35,433 nt of DNA. It comes from a virus (Duplodnaviria; Caudoviricetes). The notes under the pieces are model-generated. The model was not told the DNA's origin and searched no databases. It saw nothing but the letters and a program-made list of their open reading frames with translations. The DNA lies in IMG/VR virus record IMGVR_UViG_3300032303_001510, positions 1 to 35,433 of that record. One strand, 5' to 3'. The position numbers and the translations under genes are program-made. Below are positions 682 to 30,376 of the stretch, piece after piece (within the stretch, counting starts at the first letter, position 1; each line of letters opens with the position of its first letter).

Positions 682-1350
682 TTACCCTGTATGATGTATC
701 TGACTTCTCTGATGCCCGGTCAGATGCGGGTCTTGATAGCAGACATGTGGCTGAAAGCCATAGCTAATCATGAGGTCTTGAATCCATGCAGTCATAGCGT
801 CTAAGCCATTGTTCTGGATGTAAGTATGTTCAAGAAACAACTGTGCTGCCTTCCGATTGACAATGTAGCCATGAGTCAGCCACATGTGATTGCCCTTCCA
901 AAGTTGAAGCCCCTCAATGCACTCAACAGGCTCAATAATCTGTTCTCCCCATCCTGCATAATAGTTCCAGCCTAGATGCAGAAAATCAAACTCTGGCAAC
1001 CTGTTCCAATTTGTCACGAGTTGATTGGTCTTTTCCACATCAAATCTGGCATCATCTTCCAGGACTAAGGCAAGTTCATTGCCATTATCCAGCATCTTCT
1101 GCCAGACTGCCCGATGAGAAGCACAGCAGCCTATCTCACTCAGGCTTATGATTTGCCTTTTGTTGGCTTTCTTTAGGCTATTATCAATCCGGTGGCTGAT
1201 ATAATTGCCATCTGATGCTGTTTGCATTTCAGGCTGATTACCATGCTTATCGGTTAGCCCTATTTCAGTAAAGTGACTGAGTAGTTTTTTGCGCCTTTGG
1301 ACAGCCCTTGGCAGGCTGATGTAATAGATGGCATCAACAGGAAACTTCAC
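682..1350 (-). CDS. Glycosyltransferase family 25
   Basis: Motifs IYYISL..RR, SLSEIGCCASHRAVW and LVLEDDA. The probable start is GTG at 1350; the longer ORF overlaps the upstream gene. Confidence 0.88.
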   Translation of the reverse strand: MKFPVDAIYYISLPRAVQRRKKLLSHFTEIGLTDKHGNQPEMQTASDGNYISHRIDNSLKKANKRQIISLSEIGCCASHRAVWQKMLDNGNELALVLEDDARFDVEKTNQLVTNWNRLPEFDFLHLGWNYYAGWGEQIIEPVECIEGLQLWKGNHMWLTHGYIVNRKAAQLFLEHTYIQNNGLDAMTAWIQDLMISYGFQPHVCYQDPHLTGHQRSQIHHTG

Positions 1351-1819
1351 AACTAATCTTTTCCGTGATTGATAAGTCCAAGGCGAAAAAGTGGGTCTCA
1401 AAGTTTCTCTCCGCAAGACCCCAGTATTGGTTTGCGATTGCTTTGGAGTTGTAGTCAGTACCTTCATAGGTGATTCCTTTTGTCCTATTGATAATTGAAG
1501 TAAGTGCAAACTCAGCATTTTCTAACTTACTGTTTGCGATCAGTTTAAAATTGACTCTTCTGAGCAGACTTGTGGCTCTGCCTCCGGCTGGAGTAGCCTC
1601 TACCGATGCACTCTCCCTGACCAGAAACAGCACAATCGGGTAAGTATCATTCACAGCACAGTAAGTTGAGCCATCCAAAGTCACATAGTTGCCAGCTGAT
1701 CCTTCAATGATGCTCTCAACTGCCTCACCATAGTTCAGAGCAAGACCTACATAGGTGCTGGCTATGTTTTCACATAGGTTCTTTATTGCGCTCTCAACGG
1801 TTACCTTGGTTAGCTTCAT
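1334..1819 (-). CDS. Putative tail terminator / neck protein
   Basis: 161 aa, beta-rich, directly downstream of a virion morphogenesis-type gene. The call is positional. Confidence 0.45.
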   Translation of the reverse strand: MKLTKVTVESAIKNLCENIASTYVGLALNYGEAVESIIEGSAGNYVTLDGSTYCAVNDTYPIVLFLVRESASVEATPAGGRATSLLRRVNFKLIANSKLENAEFALTSIINRTKGITYEGTDYNSKAIANQYWGLAERNFETHFFALDLSITEKISCEVSC

Positions 1820-2334
1820 TTGCTCAAAAATTCAATGGCTAATCTGTTGATGATTTGAAGGGATTGTGCCAGCTCTTCATCAGAAAGCTCAAAGGTAGTG
1901 CCAAATCTACTTTCTAAGCTATTGGCAATCTTTAGTTGCTCCGGTGAAGTGAATGTAACTCCGTAGGCTGTATTGCTTATTGGCACAGGCCTCCATGACT
2001 TCCACATATCACCAGAGAAAGTAAAGTCAATATAAGCAGTTTGCAGTCCCAACTTCTGTCTTAATTCCTTGTAGCTATCTGTGCTACTTAATGTCTTCAA
2101 TCTTTTTTTGTTGGCAAAGGACTGAGCTTTGCCAAAGGCAGAAGGAATGACTCTTTTACCATACTGTCCTATTTGACTTCCATCAGATTTTTCTCCTTGG
2201 TTCTGCACCCGTTTCATTACTTCCGGAGCAGCATAAAGAGCAGCTGCCCTCAGCACCTTGTCAGCCTTGGATGCTTCCCTGAAGTTCTTGAGCTGCTGCT
2301 TCAGGAAGGCAGATGTGGAGTCATAGACAGGCAT
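1816..2334 (-). CDS. Putative tail completion / virion morphogenesis protein (HK97 gp10 / Mu gpG-like)
   Basis: 172 aa basic protein. IDFTFSGDMWKSW resembles the L..TG.L..S motif of this group. Confidence 0.55.
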   Translation of the reverse strand: MPVYDSTSAFLKQQLKNFREASKADKVLRAAALYAAPEVMKRVQNQGEKSDGSQIGQYGKRVIPSAFGKAQSFANKKRLKTLSSTDSYKELRQKLGLQTAYIDFTFSGDMWKSWRPVPISNTAYGVTFTSPEQLKIANSLESRFGTTFELSDEELAQSLQIINRLAIEFLSK

Positions 2335-2340
2335 AAACTT

Positions 2341-2390
2341 TTTTTACAAATATTTTTGCAGATAAATTTTATCCGTTACTATTGCATTAC
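2341..2390 (+). promoter_or_regulatory. Bacteroidota-type promoter for the plus-strand island
   Basis: TTTG at 2355-2358, 18-nt spacer, TACTATTG at 2377-2384. The upstream 26 nt nearly match 31188-31213. Confidence 0.7.
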
Positions 2391-2411
2391 AAATCTAACC
2401 AATTAAATAAC

Positions 2412-2753
2412 ATGCAGAACAAAGTATCATTTCATGACCTATTTCCAAGATTTGGGATTAGCGTTAATTCAAAAGGCACAATTCAAGACATTCAGAAGTA
2501 TGCACACATGTATGGAGGTGTTATCACCATCTATGACATGAGGAAGGACTGGAATGGATTTGATGATGACAAGCCATACAGACTTAGCTATCGACTAAAT
2601 CAGCCTCCATTTGAGTTTCTTATCTATGGCATTGAGCTTACTGAAGATGAATATGAGACCCAGAAGCTCGCCTGGAATGGCTCTGACTCAATCATTGTTG
2701 AGCCTAACTGCCAGCTTACTCTAATTGATAATGCTTACCTCCTGCTCAGATGA
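2412..2753 (+). CDS. Hypothetical protein
   Basis: ATG at 2412 follows the promoter and an A-rich AACCAAT leader. Confidence 0.75.
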   Translation: MQNKVSFHDLFPRFGISVNSKGTIQDIQKYAHMYGGVITIYDMRKDWNGFDDDKPYRLSYRLNQPPFEFLIYGIELTEDEYETQKLAWNGSDSIIVEPNCQLTLIDNAYLLLR

Positions 2754-2872
2754 TTAACAGAGGCATTAAACAAGTAGTTAAAGAGGCCTTGTTTCAGGCC
2801 TTTTTCTGGATTGTCTCTATAATCTTAGTCATACTGTTAGCTATTAAATTTACCATCTACATCAATGGATAG
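2750..2872 (+). CDS. Small membrane protein (40 aa), not in the ORF track
   Basis: MINRGIKQVVKEALFQAFFWIVSIILVILLAIKFTIYING. ATGA overlap upstream and short overlap with the next gene; one hydrophobic helix. Confidence 0.65.
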   Translation: MINRGIKQVVKEALFQAFFWIVSIILVILLAIKFTIYING

Positions 2873-3563
2873 AGACATCACCATTTGCCTCACCAGCTGC
2901 GGTCGCTTTGACCTATTGGAGAAAACCATCAGCTCATTGGTTACTTATTGGGATGGTGAGCCTCCGGCTGCATTTCTGATACATGAGGACTCAGGAGCTA
3001 TCCCTACCTCATTAGGCATTGAATTAAACAGATTCCTGAAGAGGCATTGGCAGATTGAGGCTAAGTGGACTTTAAGTAACAATGCCGGGCAAGTGCATGC
3101 AATAGATACTCTTTACCATCAAGTTGAAACTCCTTACATCTTTCATTGCGAAGATGACTGGGAGTTCTACCAGGAGGGCTTTATAGGTGATTCTAAGGCT
3201 GTGCTGGAGGCTGAGCCTAAGTGTGCAGTGGTTTGGATTAAGCATCCATCAGACAGAAGTGGCCATACAATCATGAAAGATATTAAGCTCACAAAAACCG
3301 GAGTCAGGTATCAGCAACTTGCCCACAGATATAGAGGTGATTGGCATGGCATGACTTGGTCTCCTGGTCTTAGGAGACTGTCTGATTATATTATTGCAGG
3401 AGAGTTTTCTAAATTCTGCACATGGCGGCCCAATGACCACATCATTGCGGAGAAGGACTATAATAAAAGATATTATGACCTCGGTTATAGTGGATTCACT
3501 TTATGCCGGGGCTTCATCAAGCATTTAGGCAATATTCAATCTTTAAAAAAAAGGAAATTATGA
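2865..3563 (+). CDS. Glycosyltransferase, GT-A fold (family 2-like)
   Basis: ITICLTSCGRFDLLEKTISS N-terminus, IHEDSG, YIFHCEDDW acidic motif, C-terminal IKHLG. Confidence 0.8.
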   Translation: MDRDITICLTSCGRFDLLEKTISSLVTYWDGEPPAAFLIHEDSGAIPTSLGIELNRFLKRHWQIEAKWTLSNNAGQVHAIDTLYHQVETPYIFHCEDDWEFYQEGFIGDSKAVLEAEPKCAVVWIKHPSDRSGHTIMKDIKLTKTGVRYQQLAHRYRGDWHGMTWSPGLRRLSDYIIAGEFSKFCTWRPNDHIIAEKDYNKRYYDLGYSGFTLCRGFIKHLGNIQSLKKRKL

Positions 3564-4963: not shown

Positions 4964-5209
4964 ATGACAATTACTTTTAAACCAGAATCTGCATTTACAG
5001 AAATTGAATTTGATTTTGATGTAGATAATATAATTGTAAAAGGAGAAACTGAATATCTCGAAGGCAAGTATTCAGATAATCTCTATATTACTTTTGAAGA
5101 TAAAAATGATAAAGACAATTACATAAGTATAAGCCTAAATAAAAATCAGGCACTTTACTTAGGCAATTTTATTATGGCTTTTGTGAATGAGAAAAAGACT
5201 AAGGCCTGA
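4964..5209 (+). CDS. Hypothetical protein (AT-rich)
   Basis: 81 aa acidic ORF, last gene of the island, converging on 5199-6233. Confidence 0.7.
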   Translation: MTITFKPESAFTEIEFDFDVDNIIVKGETEYLEGKYSDNLYITFEDKNDKDNYISISLNKNQALYLGNFIMAFVNEKKTKA

Positions 5210-6233
5210 CAAAGCCCTGCTGGATTAGGCCAGCATTATCGCAATTAAAGCACAGGCCTTCACCTCTCAGGTTTAACTGCCTTGCCCATATAGCAAGGCT
5301 CTGATTATAGCCATCGAGGAAGGTAGCCATTGCTCTCTCAGTAAACTCACGATTGCCTTGTGCGAAGTAGTTAGCCCTAGGTGAGGCCACCTTCTGCCAA
5401 AGGATCTGATAGCATAAGAGATTTGCCCAGGCATCCAAAAGAAACTCCTTTTGCTGGCAGATGAATGAATCAAGGCTGCACAATAATTGAGCATCAATGT
5501 AGATTCCTGACTGACTGTTGTCTTGTGTCCAGCTATCTCCAAATCCATATCCTAGCGGAGCTGTAACCGGGAAGATGCTCCATCCATTTCTCCAGAGATA
5601 AGTAAATCTAGTTGCACATTCTAAGTCCATCTGATTCCATCCCCAGTCGATGAAGAAGCCTGTGGTAGTTGGCAGATTGGTGCAATCCATAGCCACCATG
5701 ATGTTGATTTTATCAAAGTCAGAATAGAACTCATTATTGACCGGCAAGTAGTTCATTCCCTCAATGAGGTCAGCAGTTCCCTGGTCTAATATCTTGCCAT
5801 CCTGAGTCTGGAAGATGTACCAAGGCACACCAGCAACAGCTGGCCCGGCATTGTAAACATAAATCTGCTTAACTCTTAGTGCCAGATACTTGCTGCCCTG
5901 AACACTTACAAATGCGCCCTTCAGGATTGCCTCTGCTGGTACTGTCTGAATCTGCTGCCATTGCTGCACAAAGTTCTTGCTGGTCTGGAATAGCACCTGA
6001 TCTAGCTGAGCCTCTGCTGAAGTGAATAAGGCAGACTGAATGTCTCTCTTGATTCTCACATAGCTTACAGCCTGAGCTGAGTTCCACATGCCCACATAAG
6101 ACACTTGCTCCGGTGTTGCAATCTTATCCAGCAACTCCGAACTCATGCCCGGATAATCATTGATGTATAGTCCAGACAGAGGAGCATCAGCTGTGCAACC
6201 TTTTAGTCCAATGTAGTCTTCGAGGCAATTCAT
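5199..6233 (-). CDS. Putative virion structural protein (possible head-tail adaptor with an inserted beta domain)
   Basis: 344 aa with helical ends, a beta-rich centre and Cys-rich termini. Function is inferred only. Confidence 0.45.
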   Translation of the reverse strand: MNCLEDYIGLKGCTADAPLSGLYINDYPGMSSELLDKIATPEQVSYVGMWNSAQAVSYVRIKRDIQSALFTSAEAQLDQVLFQTSKNFVQQWQQIQTVPAEAILKGAFVSVQGSKYLALRVKQIYVYNAGPAVAGVPWYIFQTQDGKILDQGTADLIEGMNYLPVNNEFYSDFDKINIMVAMDCTNLPTTTGFFIDWGWNQMDLECATRFTYLWRNGWSIFPVTAPLGYGFGDSWTQDNSQSGIYIDAQLLCSLDSFICQQKEFLLDAWANLLCYQILWQKVASPRANYFAQGNREFTERAMATFLDGYNQSLAIWARQLNLRGEGLCFNCDNAGLIQQGFVRP

Positions 6234-6242
6234 TTTACAAAG

Positions 6243-6476
6243 TTAAACATTATCAGCACTTCCAATATTGGGTGCAGTTATCCGGAATATCTTATTGGTT
6301 AGTGCAACCCATGCACCTAGCACTTGACCTAATATCAGCATTAGAACTGAGTCTCCGGTCTGGATTTTCTCCATCTTATAGAGCCATCCCACACCTATCA
6401 GTAAACCTACCAGAACTACTGTTGCACTGGTGTATGCATACACTTGCATGCGCTTACTGAAGAGTGCAGGAGTCAC
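6243..6476 (-). CDS. Putative holin (two transmembrane segments)
   Basis: Hydrophobic stretches ATVVLVGLLIGVGWLY and VLMLILGQVLGAWVAL, in the lysis cassette. Likely GTG start overlapping the upstream TGA. Confidence 0.55.
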   Translation of the reverse strand: MTPALFSKRMQVYAYTSATVVLVGLLIGVGWLYKMEKIQTGDSVLMLILGQVLGAWVALTNKIFRITAPNIGSADNV

Positions 6477-6793
6477 ATGCCTGGAATAAGGCTCTTGAGC
6501 AGACCTCCCACGAACTTGCCTCTTCTCTCTGCTCTGTCCTGCTTGATTGTCTTGTTCTGCTGGCATGAATCGAGATAGATAACTGACTTTCCTAGCCCTT
6601 TGATTTGCAATTTGAGGCTATCAACTGAGGCTTCAATATGAATGTTCCTGATTGTTGATTCCATCAGGCCTGCCTCGGTCTTGGCAATGTAGTCCTCAAT
6701 TTTCTTATGCTTTACATTAGCAGTATAAACATCACCACCAATATAAATGGCTAAGACAACCAGAATTAATACTCCTTCCTTTGATATGCTCAT
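6473..6793 (-). CDS. Membrane-anchored coiled-coil protein (spanin-like)
   Basis: N-terminal transmembrane segment followed by a coiled-coil, downstream of the endolysin. Confidence 0.45.
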   Translation of the reverse strand: MSISKEGVLILVVLAIYIGGDVYTANVKHKKIEDYIAKTEAGLMESTIRNIHIEASVDSLKLQIKGLGKSVIYLDSCQQNKTIKQDRAERRGKFVGGLLKSLIPGM

Positions 6794-7083
6794 CTAAATA
6801 GATTTTTAAGTTTCTGAATAATCCTTTGGTAACCAGACATCTCAACAAGTTGCCCGGCATCATTGTAATATAGCACAGTCTCCTTCATCTCCTTGTGCAT
6901 GTCCAAGGTCATGCGGTAGAGCCGATAAATCAAAATGATTGACCAGCCATGGTGGTAGAGCCATTCCTCTCCAGGATTGTAGAAGTTAGGTTCTGGGTTA
7001 GCCAATTTAGTCAGTAGGATAGCTCCGTAAGCAGGAGTGTCATAAATAAATTTAACCAATTCTCCTCTTAATTCGTGAGTCAT
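6790..7083 (-). CDS. Putative membrane protein of the lysis cassette
   Basis: ATG at 7083 just after the endolysin stop; moderately hydrophobic segments. Confidence 0.5.
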   Translation of the reverse strand: MTHELRGELVKFIYDTPAYGAILLTKLANPEPNFYNPGEEWLYHHGWSIILIYRLYRMTLDMHKEMKETVLYYNDAGQLVEMSGYQRIIQKLKNLFR

Positions 7084-7087
7084 AACT

Positions 7088-7447
7088 TTAGTAAGTCCAA
7101 ATAACCTTTGCAGGCTTAGTTGGATCGCAGTCAGCATGGATAAATGTGCTGCTCACTCCAATCCTGTTGATACCGGATTTCAGCAGACTATCAATAATCA
7201 CAAATCGCTTATCGCCATCTGTGCAATGTATGTCTGCTGCCCATCCCTGACAATGGCTGCTTTCCTTTACTCCTCCAATTTTAGCATTATGAGCTTCTGT
7301 CCGGAAGCCTGAGTTAATTTTAAATGGAACTCCGGCTATTGCTCTGGCATTGTCGAGCATCTGAATGAACTTAGGCTTCATGTTGCTTCCTGAACCTGGA
7401 GCATCTGGAGAGTCAAACTCTGAAAGTGTAAAATGCTTTAATTGCAT
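7088..7447 (-). CDS. Endolysin, peptidase M15 family
   Basis: HFTLSEF, INSGFR, HNAKIGG..SSHCQGWAADI and FIHAD zinc-ligand motifs. Confidence 0.92.
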   Translation of the reverse strand: MQLKHFTLSEFDSPDAPGSGSNMKPKFIQMLDNARAIAGVPFKINSGFRTEAHNAKIGGVKESSHCQGWAADIHCTDGDKRFVIIDSLLKSGINRIGVSSTFIHADCDPTKPAKVIWTY

Positions 7448-7456
7448 TGTGTAAAA

Positions 7457-7690
7457 TTACTTAATGCGAGTGAATTTTTTAGCTGCACTTTTTACAGACT
7501 TTTTGCCCACACAGCCCCAGGCCTTGCGACTTAAATCATTGGCACATGGTGGGTTCTTGCACTTCTTGATGCCTGATGACCTCGCACAATAGTTATCACC
7601 CTTGGCAGTGCCAGGAGCAATGGAGTAACCTTTTGCCCCAAAGCTGATTGTCTTGCCATTTACTTTGGTCTTAAACTTCTTGTCTGCCAT
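7457..7690 (-). CDS. Small basic Cys-containing protein
   Basis: 77 aa, Lys-rich, KTISFGAKGY...NYCARS...WGC. Confidence 0.75.
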   Translation of the reverse strand: MADKKFKTKVNGKTISFGAKGYSIAPGTAKGDNYCARSSGIKKCKNPPCANDLSRKAWGCVGKKSVKSAAKKFTRIK

Positions 7691-7821
7691 TATCTTCCTT
7701 GTCCTTTATATTTCTTCTGATTGCCTGCCTTTGGCCTTCTGCCCTTGCTATGCTTGCCTTCTCTGCGCTTACCGAAGCTAATCTTAGCTGCTGGATTGCT
7801 GCCTGTTTTCGCCTTTTTCAT
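7690..7821 (-). CDS. Very basic 43 aa peptide, not in the ORF track
   Basis: MKKAKTGSNPAAKISFGKRREGKHSKGRRPKAGNQKKYKGQGR; TAATG-coupled to the next gene. Confidence 0.7.
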   Translation of the reverse strand: MKKAKTGSNPAAKISFGKRREGKHSKGRRPKAGNQKKYKGQGR

Positions 7822-7869
7822 GTGTAAATATCAATATTTTAGCCTTATTATTGTAACCCCTTATGAGTC

Positions 7870-8361
7870 TTGAAGATAACGATTTCAGAGCGAGAGCTAA
7901 AGTTTCTCAAAGTGCTGGCAACAGGCAGGCACTTTCTCAAGGATCAGGTCAATCCTAACCGTCCTTCCGTAGCTCGCTGGGGAAATACTCAAGCACAAGC
8001 TGATTTAATGGGTGTACTTGGTGAATATGCTGTTGCCAAGGCTTTGAAGCTGCCCTTTGACACTAGCATTAATCTGGAAGGAGATGGAGGCAAGACTGAC
8101 CTAATGCTTGGTGAGTATGACATTCAGGTCAAGTCCACCAAGTATAAGACTGGAAGGTTAGTCTTTAACAATCGTAAAGAGATTGGAGCTGATGTGTTCA
8201 TCTTGTGCTGGGTCAATGAAGAGGCAATGGAGGTTTCCATATTAGGATACATCAGGAAGCAATCAATCGAAGATTGTCTGGTGGAGATGAACCTTGGCCA
8301 TGGTAAGAGGCTAGTAGTAGAGCAGAAATTTCTCAAGTCTATCAGCATGCTCATGGCTTAA
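7870..8361 (+). CDS. PD-(D/E)xK nuclease-like protein
   Basis: GVLGEYAVA...TD...DIQVKS pattern. TTG start; lone plus-strand gene. Confidence 0.55.
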   Translation: MKITISERELKFLKVLATGRHFLKDQVNPNRPSVARWGNTQAQADLMGVLGEYAVAKALKLPFDTSINLEGDGGKTDLMLGEYDIQVKSTKYKTGRLVFNNRKEIGADVFILCWVNEEAMEVSILGYIRKQSIEDCLVEMNLGHGKRLVVEQKFLKSISMLMA

Positions 8362-8370
8362 CTTGAGAAA

Positions 8371-9237
8371 TTATCTTAGGCCTGTCCTGCCCTTCTCCTT
8401 GGCAGCCTCATACTGCTCTTTAGCCACAGGCCAGAGCTGATGTCGGCAGTTGTAGCCACCACGGTAGATGAATATAGTAGTACTATTAGTGCCAGCCATG
8501 CGCCCCTGCCAGCCTTTAAGATTAGGCCATTTTTGGACTTCTTCCTTGGTGAAGAACCTTCCAGATCTAGCCTCACAGAATGGCCTTGTGTCTGCTATGA
8601 TTGTACCTTGATAGAGGTAATACTCCACATCTAAATCATCAGCAATGGTCTGAATGTACTCAGCATTAAAGGTCATCACTGAGTCATTAGTAGTCTGCTT
8701 GATGTATCGTTCAAGAAATGCCTTCTCAGTGTCTGTTCCCTCAATGAACTTCCTGAGAGTCTTATTAAGCTCAGACCTTGTGCCAATGCCACTAATGTTG
8801 TCCTTTAGTACCTCCTGAATGGCTGTTCCAAAGTTATCCCTGATGCCAGCACCTAGCAGTGCATCCTTTGTGGTCGCAATATTCGACTCCAGGATTGCCT
8901 TGTAAAGCTCAGTCTTAGGCTTGAAATCATCAAGAATGACACTGATGTAATCATTGGATAGCTTGGCTAATTGGTCAAATCCTGCAACCACTTCAGCCAC
9001 TTGTGCCTGGTAAAGGCTATTATTGACAATGGTATCTGAAATGTCTTTCTTGAGCTTTATCATTTCCTTTAATGACTTGGCTCTATCCTTGGCATCCAGG
9101 CTAAGATTGCTGGCTAGGTCAATGACCTGATCTGATAGTTTGGCAAAGACTTTAGGAAGCGCATCATCCATGCGCTTCTCAATAGCCATCTGAAGCTCCT
9201 GAATCTTCTTGATTAATTCAAGCTGCTTCTCATTCAT
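8371..9237 (-). CDS. Minor capsid / head morphogenesis protein (MuF-like)
   Basis: DTRPFC and GGYNCRHQL motifs, directly downstream of the portal. Confidence 0.82.
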   Translation of the reverse strand: MNEKQLELIKKIQELQMAIEKRMDDALPKVFAKLSDQVIDLASNLSLDAKDRAKSLKEMIKLKKDISDTIVNNSLYQAQVAEVVAGFDQLAKLSNDYISVILDDFKPKTELYKAILESNIATTKDALLGAGIRDNFGTAIQEVLKDNISGIGTRSELNKTLRKFIEGTDTEKAFLERYIKQTTNDSVMTFNAEYIQTIADDLDVEYYLYQGTIIADTRPFCEARSGRFFTKEEVQKWPNLKGWQGRMAGTNSTTIFIYRGGYNCRHQLWPVAKEQYEAAKEKGRTGLR

Positions 9238-23108: not shown

Positions 23109-23492
23109 CTAGGCGAATATGTTAAAGATTAGAATGTTATCAGTCTGGTTGCTGATGGTATTGGCAAAGGTCATGCAGATGCTGTCATATTGCTTACCAT
23201 CGGTAGGAGTGAAGATGTATGGATTGACACTGCCCTGCTCATAGAAGCTGATGTGATACTGTCCTCCATAACTATTGATGAAGCCTTCCGGCATGGCAGT
23301 CAGGTCAAGCTCAACATAGCCATCAATGTCAATGGTCAGCAGTTGCTCCACAATGACATTCACTCCTGGCTTAGTAATCTTGATGACTATGTCTGCCTCG
23401 GTGAATGTAGTAGGCACAGCAATGTAGAATGCGAATGGGCAGCCATTGAGAGGCTCACAGACCTTGAAACAATCACTGCAACATAGTGCCAT
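23109..23492 (-). CDS. Hypothetical protein with a Cys-rich N-terminus, probably virion-associated
   Basis: Starts MALCCSDCFKVCEPLNGC at 23492, overlapping the end of TerL. Confidence 0.7.
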   Translation of the reverse strand: MALCCSDCFKVCEPLNGCPFAFYIAVPTTFTEADIVIKITKPGVNVIVEQLLTIDIDGYVELDLTAMPEGFINSYGGQYHISFYEQGSVNPYIFTPTDGKQYDSICMTFANTISNQTDNILIFNIFA

Positions 23493-24807
23493 ACTTTTCG
23501 AGATTGAAATTGCTTGTAATTTCAGCAAAGTTAGAGAAAATAAAATAGCGGAATGCATCCAGAGCATGAGACTTGTCTGGGTTCTTGTTCTTCCAGGCAT
23601 CTAGGCTGCCCTGCCTGTCCACCTTGGCCTCCTTCAGGTCTGTTACTAGCTCCTCACACCTCTTGCCACTTATCTGAACTTTAGCCTTCTGAAGCACAAG
23701 GATAGTAACCAATCGGCTAGCAATGTGGCTAGGGTTTGACTTAGCCACCTGAAGCTGAAGGTCTGAGACTTGCAAATAGTTTTTAATAAGAGCATAGGCA
23801 CTGATATTGTCCTGAGTAAAGGCATTTCTGGAAGCTCCAGAGGCATCACCGTTGATGATGTAGGTCATATTTGGAAACTCCTGCCTGATGGTCTGGCATA
23901 GGCCAGCTAGATCGCCAATGCGATAGACCTTGATGACATTGATTGTGGCATAATAAATGCCTTCCTCTGAGTTCTTGATGTACTGACTCACCACGCAGGT
24001 GTTGGTCACGTTGAAGTCAAAGGCAAGGTAGAGATTGTGAGCTGGAGAGGCCTTGATGTAGCCACCATAGACATGCCTTGAATAGTCAAAGGTGTAGGCA
24101 AAGAGTGACTCTCTATCCCAGACTCCCCATTGGCCTAGCGCATAAACCTCATAGTAAGTCTGGCTTACTGACTTGAGTGCCTCCATCCTAGTCACATACT
24201 CATCATCCAAGAAATCAATGGCATCCTTGTAAGTGCCATGCAGCCGGAGTACCTGGTTGGCCTCTTTGGGAGGAACATCATCAAAGAACCTCTTCTTAAT
24301 CCAATGGCTATCACTGACTGGATTGAAAGTCAGAAAGAATCGCTTTGGATGCTCGGACTTGCCCCTGAGTCGCAGAGTAATCTGAGTGAAGTCCTCCAGA
24401 GTCAATTCAGTGGCCTCCTCAATCCAGATATACTTAGCCTGGCTAAGTGACTTCAGCTTCTCAGGATCATCGCAGCCAAGAAACACAATCTTATTAGTAC
24501 CTGACTGCAACTCCATGTAGCCTGTCTTAGCCTTGATGAGCTTATCAAGACCCCATTGGCTAATCTTATTTCTGAAGTCAGCAAAGACTGAGTTCCTGAT
24601 GGTGGCAGCTACTTTTCGAATTACGAAAAAGGTCTGGAATTGATTGTCCTTGTTGTCGCATATCTCAGCCAGGAATAGCTGAATCATGGTCTGGCTCTTG
24701 CCACTTCCAGCACCTCCCCAAAGGATGTTGTAGGTCTTTGGGTCTGTTACTGCATCAAGGTACTTCTCCTGCCACAAGTCAGGACTTGAGAGATCAAGCT
24801 GTGCCAT
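23473..24807 (-). CDS. terL: Terminase large subunit (PBSX / SPP1-like)
   Basis: GGAGSGKS Walker A, IWIEEATEL Walker B, LTFNP, AFDFN and HALDAFRY nuclease motifs. Confidence 0.96.
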   Translation of the reverse strand: MAQLDLSSPDLWQEKYLDAVTDPKTYNILWGGAGSGKSQTMIQLFLAEICDNKDNQFQTFFVIRKVAATIRNSVFADFRNKISQWGLDKLIKAKTGYMELQSGTNKIVFLGCDDPEKLKSLSQAKYIWIEEATELTLEDFTQITLRLRGKSEHPKRFFLTFNPVSDSHWIKKRFFDDVPPKEANQVLRLHGTYKDAIDFLDDEYVTRMEALKSVSQTYYEVYALGQWGVWDRESLFAYTFDYSRHVYGGYIKASPAHNLYLAFDFNVTNTCVVSQYIKNSEEGIYYATINVIKVYRIGDLAGLCQTIRQEFPNMTYIINGDASGASRNAFTQDNISAYALIKNYLQVSDLQLQVAKSNPSHIASRLVTILVLQKAKVQISGKRCEELVTDLKEAKVDRQGSLDAWKNKNPDKSHALDAFRYFIFSNFAEITSNFNLEKYGTMLQ

Positions 24808-25127
24808 TAGGCTTCTGGTTCAGCTGCCTTCCTATTAACAGGCTGTGGCATAATGACTGTATTGAATGAGCCTTCCAGCTCAATGTCTTGCTTTGGTTTG
24901 CCATAGGCTCTATCCAGGAGTAATTCTGCTGCTCTTACATCACCTTTAGTTGCCTTGGCTCTCAGAGCCATTAGAATGGCCTCTGCTGCGGTCTTGCCAT
25001 CCTTCTCATCGCCAAGTACATTAGCAAGCAACTCCCTCAACTCAGGTAGCTTTTTAGGCCTTCCAGCAGGATTACCAGATTGGCCTTTTTTCCATTTTCC
25101 TTTTTCAAGATTCTCCGGCCTTGGCAT
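24807..25127 (-). CDS. terS: Terminase small subunit (DUF5681-type)
   Basis: WKKGQSGNPAGRPK and GDVRAAELLLDRAYGKPKQ; TAATG-coupled to TerL. Confidence 0.85.
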   Translation of the reverse strand: MPRPENLEKGKWKKGQSGNPAGRPKKLPELRELLANVLGDEKDGKTAAEAILMALRAKATKGDVRAAELLLDRAYGKPKQDIELEGSFNTVIMPQPVNRKAAEPEA

Positions 25128-25166: not shown

Positions 25167-25436
25167 TCATAATGACATAATAAATTTATCAAATTGGAAT
25201 TTAACGCAACTACTTAATTCAATGTATGTTTTTCCTTCTTCTGGAAAAGTATGAACTGCCAAGTGACTTTCACTTAACAAAAAAAGACATGTGTAACCAT
25301 GAGGATAAAAATATTTTTCAATAAATCCCTCAATTCCAAAGCCACTTTCAACAAGTTTATCTTTAAGATATGTTTTTAAAATATCAGAATTAACTTCACT
25401 AATCCAAGTGGAATAATTATGCATCTGAGCCTTCAT
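25167..25436 (-). CDS. speD: Minimal S-adenosylmethionine decarboxylase proenzyme
   Basis: FYPHGYT..LLSESHLAVHTFPE...IELSSC: E-S self-cleavage site plus the conserved His and Cys. Confidence 0.88.
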   Translation of the reverse strand: MKAQMHNYSTWISEVNSDILKTYLKDKLVESGFGIEGFIEKYFYPHGYTCLFLLSESHLAVHTFPEEGKTYIELSSCVKFQFDKFIMSL

Positions 25437-26715
25437 CAATGTCAATTTTTGGAAATATTAATTTGATTTCTTTTGGATTACCTTTAAAAAAAACTAAAAC
25501 CTGTTCATGCATTTTAACTACTTTTCTGCTGTTCATATACCTATTTGCTCGTAATGCTCCATTACCAACTGATTGAACTAATATTAATTCATTATATAAT
25601 ATAAGTCCGTTTTTATAAAAAATATCTTTTATATCATCTGGAAATCTATAATAATTGCCTTTTTCATTCCTTATATCCCCGCAAACAATTACAGCAAAAC
25701 GATTATCTTTTAAACATTTTATTGAGTTTGAAAAAGCTACATCTAAGATATGTATAAAGTCTTTATATTCTTTTTGATTGCTTGCATCGTTAGGTAAATC
25801 AGAATATATTTCTAAATCAAAGTATGGAGGACAACTAAATAGTAGATCTTGAGAATTAATTTCAAGATGATTAAGAACATTGCGACCATCATCGCAAATA
25901 TAATTAGCATTCATTCCCTTAACTCTTTGATTATTTAAATCGCTTTGTGATTTTCGTAATTCAATACCAGTAAAGGTATTACCTACATAAGATGAAACAT
26001 ATCCAAAAACTGTATCTCCGGCAAAGCAATCAAATGTTTTTCCACCTGGCAACCCAAACCATTTATTTATTATTTCAGCTAAAACTGAATCTAATATTGA
26101 TATTGAATTTTCTCTTATTACTCCTCCTTTATATGGTTTGTTTTCCCAATTTTTAACTATTGCATTTACTTTACTTTCAATGTTATCTCTACTCTCCCCA
26201 TTATCACTAATTAAAATATTCCAATAAGATTTTCTATCTTGCCAATAACCCTCTCTTGCATTTAGCACTGAAAATGGAGGTACAATAAATTTATCCTGTA
26301 ATTTAGTAATTGCCTCAACTTTTTTATCATCTTCTTCAGCTTCAAGCTCTTCAGTAAAGCCAACAGGAACATCTAAGCCCCAGGCATCAAGTTCTTCAGC
26401 ATTCCAGTTGTTTGCAAGATCATCCCAATCCCACTCACCAAACCCAACATTGTCCTTGATGATGAACTCTCTTTGCTTGGCCTCATCCCAATCAACTACT
26501 TCCACAGGCACTTCCTTCCATTTGGCTTCCTTAATGGCTTTATAGCGCATGTTGCCTCCAAGGATAATCATATCCTGGTTCACTACTATTGGCCTGACAC
26601 TTGCCATCTCTGGAAAGTCCTTCAGGCTTTGAACGAGCTTATGAAACTTATCATCCTTGATAAGTCTCGGATTGCTTGGGTTTGGTTTGATTGAACTTAT
26701 TGAAACTACTTGCAT
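25417..26715 (-). CDS. ParB/Srx N-terminal domain fused to an amino-(N6A/N4C) DNA methyltransferase-fold domain
   Basis: IKPNPSNPR..ILGGNMRY..IKDN ParB domain; acidic linker; motif I DCFAGDT, TGIEL, motif IV FSCPPY. Confidence 0.85.
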   Translation of the reverse strand: MQVVSISSIKPNPSNPRLIKDDKFHKLVQSLKDFPEMASVRPIVVNQDMIILGGNMRYKAIKEAKWKEVPVEVVDWDEAKQREFIIKDNVGFGEWDWDDLANNWNAEELDAWGLDVPVGFTEELEAEEDDKKVEAITKLQDKFIVPPFSVLNAREGYWQDRKSYWNILISDNGESRDNIESKVNAIVKNWENKPYKGGVIRENSISILDSVLAEIINKWFGLPGGKTFDCFAGDTVFGYVSSYVGNTFTGIELRKSQSDLNNQRVKGMNANYICDDGRNVLNHLEINSQDLLFSCPPYFDLEIYSDLPNDASNQKEYKDFIHILDVAFSNSIKCLKDNRFAVIVCGDIRNEKGNYYRFPDDIKDIFYKNGLILYNELILVQSVGNGALRANRYMNSRKVVKMHEQVLVFFKGNPKEIKLIFPKIDIDEGSDA

Positions 26716-29824: not shown

Positions 29825-30376
29825 TTATTCAAAAACCATGATGGTGTTCTTGAACCACCACAGGCTGCTCCTTGACCTTAACTGCATGCTGATGGCATTG
29901 TTGATGGCATAGCCTCTGAGCTTCATCTGAGCCTCAATGTAGCTGTTAGGCTGGCAGTTCACATGCCCATCACCTACTTGCCCAGGGATTGCCCATGAGA
30001 GGATGATCATCTTTGGCTTACTGACCACCAGATTATCGAGGAATGTCTGCTCGAACTCTGCCGGGATATGCTCACCTACTTCCAGACTCATGACCACATC
30101 AATCTGCTCACCGCAATCAAAAGGCTTACTCAGGTCAGCAACCTTGCCAAGCCCACAAGTGAGCTGTGGTGTATTCGGATTGCCATCATAGGCATGCACC
30201 TTGTAGTTGTAAGCCTGGAGCAAGTGAGCATAATCACCCATGCCACATCCTAAGTCTAAAACACTGTTAAAATGATTCTTCTGGAATAGCTTTACAATGG
30301 TTGCTGCTAGTGATCTGTCATAGGCATGACCTTCATTTGTCGGATTCTCCCAGAATCCATTCTCATTTATGTTCAT
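29825..30376 (-). CDS. Class I SAM-dependent methyltransferase (probably small-molecule or glycan substrate)
   Basis: VLDLGCGMG, VMSLEVGEHIP, SWAIPGQVGDGHVNC; no (D/N/S)PPY motif. Confidence 0.85.
   Translation of the reverse strand: MNINENGFWENPTNEGHAYDRSLAATIVKLFQKNHFNSVLDLGCGMGDYAHLLQAYNYKVHAYDGNPNTPQLTCGLGKVADLSKPFDCGEQIDVVMSLEVGEHIPAEFEQTFLDNLVVSKPKMIILSWAIPGQVGDGHVNCQPNSYIEAQMKLRGYAINNAISMQLRSRSSLWWFKNTIMVFE

What the first reader, a model, noticed from the sequence alone, without database searches (positions are those of the whole stretch)
25167..26715. Candidate DNA aminopropylation system: AdoMet decarboxylase plus a ParB-fused methyltransferase-fold enzyme with an aminopropyltransferase-like Asp in motif I
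Seen: a minimal SpeD (ESH, HTFPE, Cys) overlaps the end of a ParB-methyltransferase fusion, directly upstream of terS/terL. I recognise no spermidine synthase in the complete genome, so decarboxylated SAM (dcSAM) has no obvious phage-encoded consumer. Motif I reads F-A-G-D-T (26025-26011), while the catalytic motif IV SCPPY is intact. Established: spermidine synthases carry GxGDG, where the Asp binds the dcSAM aminopropyl amine and disfavours SAM; amino-methyltransferases have FxGxG and use (S/D/N)PPY to activate N6-adenine or N4-cytosine. Inference: this enzyme may transfer aminopropyl rather than methyl to an exocyclic base amine. That would give a cationic hypermodification, possibly coupled to packaging, for anti-restriction or charge neutralisation.
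Basis: partly seen in the sequence, partly recalled or inferred. Interest (0 to 1): 0.92.

Follow-up and report, generated by a model that had tools for sequence, protein, structure and literature searches.

The report
Phage DNA aminopropylation from decarboxylated SAM
Next to its DNA-packaging genes this phage carries a methyltransferase-shaped enzyme overlapping a SAM decarboxylase gene, and across hundreds of phage and prophage loci the enzyme's cofactor pocket changes together with the decarboxylase, so it likely uses decarboxylated SAM and is predicted to attach a positively charged aminopropyl group to DNA bases, which would be an undescribed DNA modification.

Summary
Observation confirmed with one correction: motif IV is C-P-P-Y (Cys295 in the D/N/S slot), not canonical. 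The genome is complete and has no spermidine synthase. In 261 sequence clusters, all 133 speD-linked transferases have the motif I Asp and lack the Arg/Lys three residues later. None of 105 Gly+Arg and none of 17 acid+Lys relatives has speD, so the Asp alone is not the marker; Asp plus loss of the basic residue is. A nested lineage lost speD and regained Lys and a motif X Phe. The speD ortholog from phage P2559S is a published true SAM decarboxylase. Of the 105 Gly+Arg relatives, 17 carry a PLP enzyme related to ViI gp226, which decarboxylates amino acids on DNA bases; 0 of 137 Asp-type loci do. Best reading: two routes to one aminopropyl base, decarboxylating before or after transfer. dcSAM use about 0.85, aminopropyl on DNA about 0.62; acceptor base unknown, nothing assayed. 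The scan noted this pair on other genomes before (e1-5865265, e1-6280692).

The parts
25417..26715 (-). ParB-fused SAM-fold transferase, 432 aa (PHROG 498 family); predicted dcSAM-dependent DNA aminopropyltransferase
26341..26715 (-). ParB-like N-terminal part (about residues 1-125), genome-like GC3 of 0.45; the same domain is fused to ordinary DPPY/SPPY methylases in 48 of 80 related loci
25417..26298 (-). transferase domain, motif order X-I-II-III-IV (circularly permuted against beta-class methylases), GC3 0.14
26092..26094 (-). Leu208 in motif X (Leu in 135 of 137 Asp/no-basic clusters; Phe in 104 of 105 Gly+Arg and 17 of 17 acid+Lys clusters)
26002..26031 (-). motif I, D229-G238, with Asp234 (26016-26014) and Phe237 (26007-26005) where speD-less relatives have Gly and Arg/Lys
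25822..25836 (-). motif IV S-C-P-P-Y, with Cys295 (25833-25831) in the D/N/S slot
25167..25436 (-). minimal class 1b SAM decarboxylase (speD), 89 aa from the ATG at 25436; Glu56-Ser57-His58 at 25271-25263, Cys77 at 25208-25206; overlaps the transferase by 20 nt; GC3 0.18
24807..25127 (-). DUF5681 protein in the small-terminase position, 39 nt after speD (context)
23473..24807 (-). terminase large subunit (context)

Best explanation
The phage's speD likely converts SAM to decarboxylated SAM (dcSAM), and the overlapping ParB-fused methyltransferase-fold enzyme, whose cofactor pocket differs from that of its speD-less relatives at three positions, is predicted to transfer the 3-aminopropyl group of dcSAM to an exocyclic amine of a base in phage DNA (+57 Da, releasing methylthioadenosine). 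Shown here: the genes, their overlap, the pocket residues, their linkage to speD and the exclusive PLP partners. Inferred: dcSAM as cofactor (about 0.85), aminopropyl rather than methyl transfer, and DNA as acceptor. The base (N4-C, N6-A or N2-G) is open. The parent Gly+Arg enzymes would transfer the whole aminocarboxypropyl arm of SAM, and some would remove its CO2 afterwards with a PLP enzyme. Late expression next to terS/terL and an anti-restriction role are guesses from gene position.
For: (1) speD with Asp/no-basic pocket in 133 of 137 clusters, against 0 of 105 Gly+Arg, 0 of 17 acid+Lys and 0 of 2 others. In samples not picked on motif I: 47 of 49 against 0 of 21 (loci) and 39 of 42 against 0 of 24 (loci), all counted. 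From the speD side, 76 of 80 loci hold the transferase and all 74 readable motifs have the Asp. (2) The three best discriminating columns are L208 (motif X), F237 and D234 (motif I). (3) A 14-row speD-less clade nested in the speD clade (AU p 0.022 against holding the speD rows together) has Lys at 237 and Phe at 208 again. (4) The P2559S speD is a true AdoMetDC (PMC9992855). (5) No spermidine synthase in the phage; 11 of 16 genomes with the prophage cassette have no TIGR00417 match and 2 of 16 pass its cut-off. (6) A PLP fold-II enzyme lies beside or inside the transferase in 17 of 105 Gly+Arg clusters and 0 of 137 Asp/no-basic clusters. AlanGrant gp2 is 26% identical to ViI gp226 (pairwise E 1e-23) and the PLP lysine motif aligns across the partners. 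gp226 decarboxylates amino acids bound to DNA bases and needs a free alpha-amine (PMC8989533 section 19). (7) The same ParB is fused to canonical DNA amino-methylases in 48 of 80 related loci.
Against: No activity, ligand-bound structure or virion nucleoside data. The linkage rests on few independent events: one gain of speD, one pocket swap or reversion, and five losses of speD without return of a basic residue (L001/L002, L453, L468 and L313 keep the Asp; L491 lost it). The Asp explains exclusion of the carboxyl, not which S-substituent leaves. 88 of 105 Gly+Arg clusters have no PLP partner within the fetched flanks, and 13 of the 17 partners belong to a subfamily only distantly like gp226 (E 4e-4 or weaker, or no hit, with a two-sequence gp2+gp226 profile). 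The acid+Lys pocket keeps the Asp without speD. Cys295 matches neither spermidine synthase (Asp) nor methylases (D/N/S). The best fold matches are tRNA m2G methyltransferases. The 16 host genomes were chosen by me, many are drafts or MAGs, and completeness was not given.
Confidence: 0.62

Rival explanations
1. Private-cofactor methylase: the enzyme binds dcSAM in the usual pose and transfers its S-methyl group to DNA, so the phage keeps methylating its own DNA while speD drains SAM from host SAM-dependent defences.
For: dcSAM keeps the S-methyl (established chemistry). The motif I Asp is described as a carboxyl filter, and the propylamine binds like the same part of SAM in methyltransferases. 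The fold and PPY are those of amino-methyltransferases. This reading fits all the speD linkage data.
Against: It does not explain why the parent enzymes pair with, or contain, a PLP enzyme of a family that acts on base-bound amino acids, nor why PLP partner and speD exclude each other. A SAM synthetase gene lies beside 8 of 137 Asp-type loci, which fits demand for SAM better than draining it.
Confidence: 0.16
2. The enzyme is a dcSAM-dependent aminopropyltransferase, but the acceptor is not a base in DNA: a virion or host protein, an RNA, a free nucleotide or a small amine.
For: Top structural matches are the tRNA m2G enzymes Trm11, Trm14 and TrmN (Z 19.8, rmsd 2.5, 179 aligned for 6zxv). PPY-type motifs also act on protein amines (PMC7544214). 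Cys295 is atypical.
Against: The closest solved sequences for the transferase part are beta-class DNA amino-methylases (2ZIE, 8S9N, CcrM, MboII). The ParB slot holds DNA methylases in relatives. The PLP partner family acts on DNA.
Confidence: 0.12
3. An ordinary SAM methylase next to an auxiliary speD that boosts host spermidine or depletes SAM; the linkage is shared descent of one cassette.
For: All speD rows fall in one clade. speD is described as the commonest polyamine gene of phages (PMC9992855, passage). Two speD relatives lie in large contigs with no transferase nearby (L365, L380).
Against: The pocket changes back where speD is lost. 14 of 16 host genomes have no above-cut-off spermidine synthase. 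Motifs I and IV are non-canonical. The overlap is kept across prophages in genomes of several phyla.
Confidence: 0.07

Closest known systems
Croceibacter phage P2559S gp66-gp67 (and Pseudomonas phage ZRG1 ParB protein + AdoMetDC)
   Same: Orthologous pair with the same motif I (FAGDTVFG) and overlap; 41% and 46% identical; gp67 shown to be a true AdoMetDC (PMC9992855, passage).
   Different: gp66 is annotated hypothetical; that paper's main text holds no 'methyltransferase', 'methylase' or 'DNA modification' and treats speD as a polyamine gene. Its supplement was not read.
CmoA-CmoX of Synechococcus phage S-B43 (PMC12783734, passages)
   Same: A phage enzyme makes an altered SAM and a neighbouring DNA-methyltransferase homolog, retuned by a pocket residue, uses it; ParB genes occur nearby.
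   Different: CmoX is a C5-cytosine enzyme that transfers the carboxymethyl at the methyl position of Cx-SAM; here the scaffold is an amino-methylase, the cofactor is dcSAM and the predicted leaving arm is the propylamine.
Spermidine synthase (SpeE)
   Same: Asp in the middle of the motif I loop and dependence on speD (PMC1282579 section 9).
   Different: No PF01564 match, Cys instead of Asp at the end of strand 4, PPY motif, ParB instead of the N-terminal beta domain; no sequence relationship found.
Beta-class N6A/N4C DNA methyltransferases (TTHA0409 2ZIE, CcrM, M.MboII)
   Same: Nearest solved sequences for the transferase part (2ZIE E 1.4e-12); PPY, motif II acid, seven-stranded fold; they fill the same ParB slot in related phages.
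   Different: Permuted motif order, FAGDT for FxGxG, CPPY for (D/N/S)PPY; PF01555 score 25.0, below its 26.7 cut-off.
ViI gp226 / M6 gp52 thymidine hypermodification (PMC8989533, section 19 and passages)
   Same: Would end in a cationic aminoalkyl base; the PLP decarboxylase family recurs with the Gly+Arg relatives of this enzyme.
   Different: Those pathways load free amino acids on 5-hmdU through a kinase and a transferase; none of these genes was recognised in this genome, and this locus has no PLP gene.

Membership tests
Class 1b AdoMet decarboxylase | Glu-Ser self-cleavage site, His-Thr-x-Pro-Glu and downstream Cys | tested here: met
   aligned with 1TLU, E 1.7e-6; invariant in 6 of 6 aligned; ESH in 132 of 133 linked speD, L302 has an internal deletion. 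The roles of these residues are recalled.
Class 1b AdoMet decarboxylase | family score above cut-off | tested here: met
   PF02675 43 bits against 25
Class 1b AdoMet decarboxylase | acts on SAM, not arginine or ornithine | not testable with these tools
   the 46% identical P2559S ortholog is a published true AdoMetDC; this protein is not assayed
N6A/N4C DNA methyltransferase | seven-stranded class I fold | tested here: met
   model pLDDT 86; Z 19.8, rmsd 2.5, 179 aligned to Trm11
N6A/N4C DNA methyltransferase | motif I FxGxG | tested here: not met
   FAGDT; consensus from PMC7544214
N6A/N4C DNA methyltransferase | motif IV (D/N/S)PP(Y/F/W) | tested here: not met
   CPPY; Cys in 258 of 261 clusters
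N6A/N4C DNA methyltransferase | methyl transfer from SAM to DNA | not testable with these tools
   needs an assay
Spermidine synthase / aminopropyltransferase family | Asp in the middle of the motif I loop | tested here: met
   Asp234 by sequence position; no structural superposition was made
Spermidine synthase / aminopropyltransferase family | Asp at the end of strand 4 | tested here: not met
   Cys295
Spermidine synthase / aminopropyltransferase family | PF01564 match | tested here: not met
   0 of 1 genome; absent from the Pfam hits of the protein
Spermidine synthase / aminopropyltransferase family | closest fold is a spermidine synthase | tested here: inconclusive
   rows listed are other class I methyltransferase folds
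Spermidine synthase / aminopropyltransferase family | aminopropyl transfer from dcSAM | not testable with these tools
   inferred
CmoA-CmoX system | C5 methyltransferase homolog plus Cx-SAM synthase | tested here: not met
   neighbour is speD and the enzyme has a PPY amino-methylase scaffold; only the logic is shared

The most novel reading that the evidence does not exclude
PHROG 498, now annotated as DNA methyltransferases and present in phages of many bacterial phyla and in a halovirus, is a family of DNA aminoalkyl transferases. Gly+Arg members put the aminocarboxypropyl arm of SAM on a base, some then remove its CO2 with a gp226-like PLP enzyme, and the Asp clade reaches the same aminopropyl base by making dcSAM first. 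This would be the first aminopropyl and aminocarboxypropyl transfer onto DNA, with two or three new bases.
Probability: 0.5. Interest if true: 0.92.

Novelty: new variant of a known kind. Interest (0 to 1): 0.82.

Why it matters
Aminopropyl transfer from dcSAM is known for small amines, and my full-text searches turned up no report of it on DNA; subscription papers and Iyer et al. 2013 could not be read. If true, a common packaging-region gene (2,371 relatives among 2,777 candidates) is mis-annotated as a methylase, a common phage 'auxiliary' speD gets a phage-internal purpose, and a two-gene cassette would install a primary amine on DNA, useful as a labelling handle. It is directly testable because cultured phages carry each route: P2559S and ZRG1 (speD), AlanGrant/Vincenzo, Pam4 and R6L (PLP partner), B054 and phiFL3A (neither).

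Tried and rejected
'The Asp alone marks speD' was rejected: 19 of 152 Asp clusters lack speD. 'Motif IV intact' was rejected. The second methyltransferase gene (30376-29825) was considered as the dcSAM consumer and rejected: it has a canonical DLGCGMG motif and general Methyltransf hits. The first PLP profile was built from stop-to-stop ORFs; it hit four alternative-frame ORFs and missed four real partners, so the corrected list is used (17 of 105 in both). That first profile did not detect ViI gp226; the trimmed profile that includes AlanGrant gp2 and four fused domains did (60 bits). The first IQ-TREE run timed out; FastTree and a 44-row IQ-TREE were used. No spermidine synthase or aminocarboxypropyl transferase appeared among the listed fold matches, which is inconclusive. 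The model came without coordinates, so no ligand docking was done. No report on modified DNA of P2559S appeared in the search listing. Iyer et al. 2013 (NAR 41:7635) is not held; it may already list speD or PLP genes in ParB-terminase loci. No complex prediction, metagenome scan or read mapping was run.

Full report
Verdict. The gene pair is real and conserved. The transferase very likely uses decarboxylated SAM (about 0.85) and most likely puts an aminopropyl group on a DNA base (about 0.62). Nothing was assayed.

Anatomy. The window is a complete phage record: 123-nt terminal repeats, 100% by CheckV. On the minus strand, dnaB and two small ORFs precede a 432-aa ORF (26715-25417), then speD, a DUF5681 gene in the terS position and terL. 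The 432-aa protein has ParB_N at residues 2-90 and matches PHROG 498 at E 1.6e-112; its PF01555 score (25.0) is under the cut-off. speD most likely starts at the ATG at 25436 (89 aa, 20-nt overlap). It aligns with solved class 1b AdoMetDC over the cleavage site, HTFPE and the Cys. No spermidine synthase is encoded. The transferase domain and speD form a low-GC block (26-30% against about 45%; GC3 0.14 and 0.18 against 0.45 for the ParB part and 0.56 for terL). Among the 80 best loci for this ParB domain, 48 fuse it to a canonical DPPY/SPPY methylase and 2 to this domain plus speD. So catalytic domain and speD arrived together in a slot that usually holds a DNA methylase.

Fold and motifs. The AlphaFold model (pLDDT 86) is a class I SAM fold; the best matches are the tRNA m2G enzymes Trm11, Trm14 and TrmN (Z 19.8, rmsd 2.5, 179 aligned). 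By sequence the nearest solved proteins for this domain are beta-class DNA amino-methylases, with the two halves in swapped order (2ZIE). Motif I is F-A-G-D-T at 26025-26011. Motif IV is C-P-P-Y: Cys295 stands where amino-methylases have D/N/S (PMC7544214, passages) and spermidine synthase has Asp (PMC1282579 section 9). Cys is there in 258 of 261 clusters. An earlier count said Cys296; 295 is right.

Co-occurrence test. Of 501 loci plus a window slice, 497 held the transferase. I kept the 394 with at least 800 nt downstream and 200 aa of domain, and grouped them into 261 clusters at 95% identity. speD was present in 133 of 137 clusters with Asp and no basic residue at +3, in 0 of 105 with Gly and Arg, in 0 of 17 with an acid and Lys, and in 0 of 2 others. 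This pool is biased, because selected on motif I or speD. Two samples were found with patterns outside motif I, although ranked by likeness to the query (best 80 of 565 and of 341). They give 47 of 49 against 0 of 21 (78 of 80 loci kept, 70 clusters) and 39 of 42 against 0 of 24 (71 of 80 kept, 66 clusters). From the speD side, 76 of 80 loci held the transferase and all 74 readable motifs had the Asp; two of the four misses were cut contig ends. The three best discriminating columns are Leu208, Phe237 and Asp234, in motifs X and I. That these line the pocket for the methionine arm is established for motif I and recalled for motif X.

How independent is this? With motif I removed, all 88 speD rows of a 121-row tree fall in one clade (support 98), so there is one gain. 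Inside it a 14-row speD-less clade (support 100) has Lys at 237 and Phe at 208, as in the parent. Holding the speD rows together is rejected at p-AU 0.022 (44 rows; the group was named after earlier trees were seen). In that clade the motif X-II segment is 54-57% identical to its nearest speD relative against 69-79% elsewhere (control 76 against 78), so it may be a swapped segment rather than point reversion. Either way the cofactor segment changed where speD was lost. Against this: four clusters lost speD and kept the Asp with no basic residue (L001/L002, L453, L468, L313), and one lost speD and the Asp (L491). They may be recent losses, use a speD elsewhere, or be decaying.

Is speD a true SAM decarboxylase with another consumer? 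The P2559S ortholog, 46% identical and next to the same transferase, restored spermidine in an E. coli speD mutant (PMC9992855, passages). In 16 genomes that I picked from the prophage loci with the cassette, TIGR00417 matched in 5 and passed its cut-off in 2, and 11 had a single AdoMet_dc match. Many are drafts or MAGs, so absence is not proven, but boosting host spermidine is a poor general explanation.

Methyl or aminopropyl? The Asp only argues for dcSAM: in spermidine synthase it blocks the carboxyl, and dcSAM still has its methyl. The deciding lead came from the relatives. A PLP fold-II enzyme lies beside (14) or in frame inside (3: L026, L155, L202) the transferase in 17 of 105 Gly+Arg clusters, in 0 of 137 Asp/no-basic clusters and in 0 of 17 acid+Lys clusters (the clusters are related, so the Fisher p of 3e-7 overstates the case). 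AlanGrant gp2 is 26% identical to ViI gp226, and the lysine motif aligns across all partners shown; a profile of the partners scores gp226 at 60 bits. gp226 decarboxylates amino acids bound to DNA bases and needs a free alpha-amine (PMC8989533 section 19). A methylated base offers no such substrate; an aminocarboxypropylated base does, and its decarboxylation gives an aminopropyl base. speD and the PLP enzyme would then be two answers to one task. Limits: 88 of 105 Gly+Arg clusters show no PLP gene within the fetched flanks, and 13 of the 17 partners are only distant relatives of gp226.

Mechanism. Shown: genes, overlap, pocket residues, linkage, exclusive partners. Inferred: speD self-cleaves and makes dcSAM; the transferase binds it through Asp234 in a pocket that has lost the carboxylate-binding Arg; a flipped base held by PPY attacks the propyl carbon, releasing methylthioadenosine. 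The base is open: TSPPY in the nearest solved sequence and in three family clusters hints at N4-cytosine, the fold matches at N2-guanine. The role of Cys295 is unknown. Late, packaging-linked action rests on gene position and on the ParB-terminase proposal as cited in PMC4738411 and PMC8256090 (passages).

Rivals. Methyl transfer from dcSAM (0.16); aminopropyl transfer to a non-DNA acceptor (0.12); plain methylase with a passenger speD (0.07).

Novelty. The logic of a phage-made SAM variant used by a retuned DNA methyltransferase homolog is known from CmoA-CmoX (PMC12783734, passages), so I class this as a new variant of a known kind, with chemistry not found in my searches: searches returned no papers, and the listings showed none on this reaction. 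PMC12704722 (passages) lists ParB-N6N4-methylase fusions as predicted methylases. PMC13219725 and PMC13458397 (passages) hold no 'aminopropyl'. No supplements were read, and Iyer et al. 2013 was not available. The scan's notes e1-5865265 and e1-6280692 describe the same pair on other genomes; they are not independent evidence, and my linkage counts were made before I saw them. Interest 0.82.

Noticed in passing
L303:1458-2618, L301:5008-6183, L306:1929-3140, L304:4950-6182, L167:3647-4693: In 6 of 17 acid+Lys clusters (and 1 of 105 Gly+Arg) a 350-410 aa protein with an SGGKD PP-loop-like motif and a C-x-x-C-Y-K-C motif follows the transferase where speD would be; only weak DUF7411 or QueC hits. 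It could be an ATP-dependent tailoring enzyme for a carboxylated adduct.
   Followed up: partly
L292:2412-3455, L300:2355-3455, L304:2412-3458, L392:4544-5665: A SAM synthetase gene lies near the transferase in 8 of 137 Asp/no-basic and 6 of 17 acid+Lys clusters, 0 of 105 Gly+Arg.
   Followed up: partly
L392:678-1979 and 1983-3017: Two ParB-fused genes in tandem before speD; the second has the ParB part and only the C-terminal end of the transferase.
   Followed up: no
L409:2118-2987; L378:2654-2983: An unrelated ORF sits between transferase and speD; L409 lacks ParB and lies among replication genes.
   Followed up: no
L191:2110-4866; L184:2995-4272: Gly+Arg transferases fused to or next to an Asp/Asn beta-hydroxylase-like domain, with a PLP gene following; suggests further tailoring.
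   Followed up: no
L271:331-2190; L155:1089-3323: A Cys-rich domain (GCGG-x-CC) is appended to or inserted in the transferase in one speD-type and one PLP-type protein.
   Followed up: no
L365, L380: Close speD relatives in 250-290 kb contigs with no transferase within 3 kb; speD of this type can stand alone.
   Followed up: no
window 682-1518 (-) and 29825-30376 (-): A family 25 glycosyltransferase and a small class I methyltransferase with canonical motif I; not linked to the cassette.
   Followed up: partly
window 5199-9237 (-): Unannotated 344-aa and 288-aa ORFs after a weak portal match (11044-9239, PHROG 7376); no capsid family was recognised by Pfam or PHROGs among the 47 ORFs scanned.
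   Followed up: no
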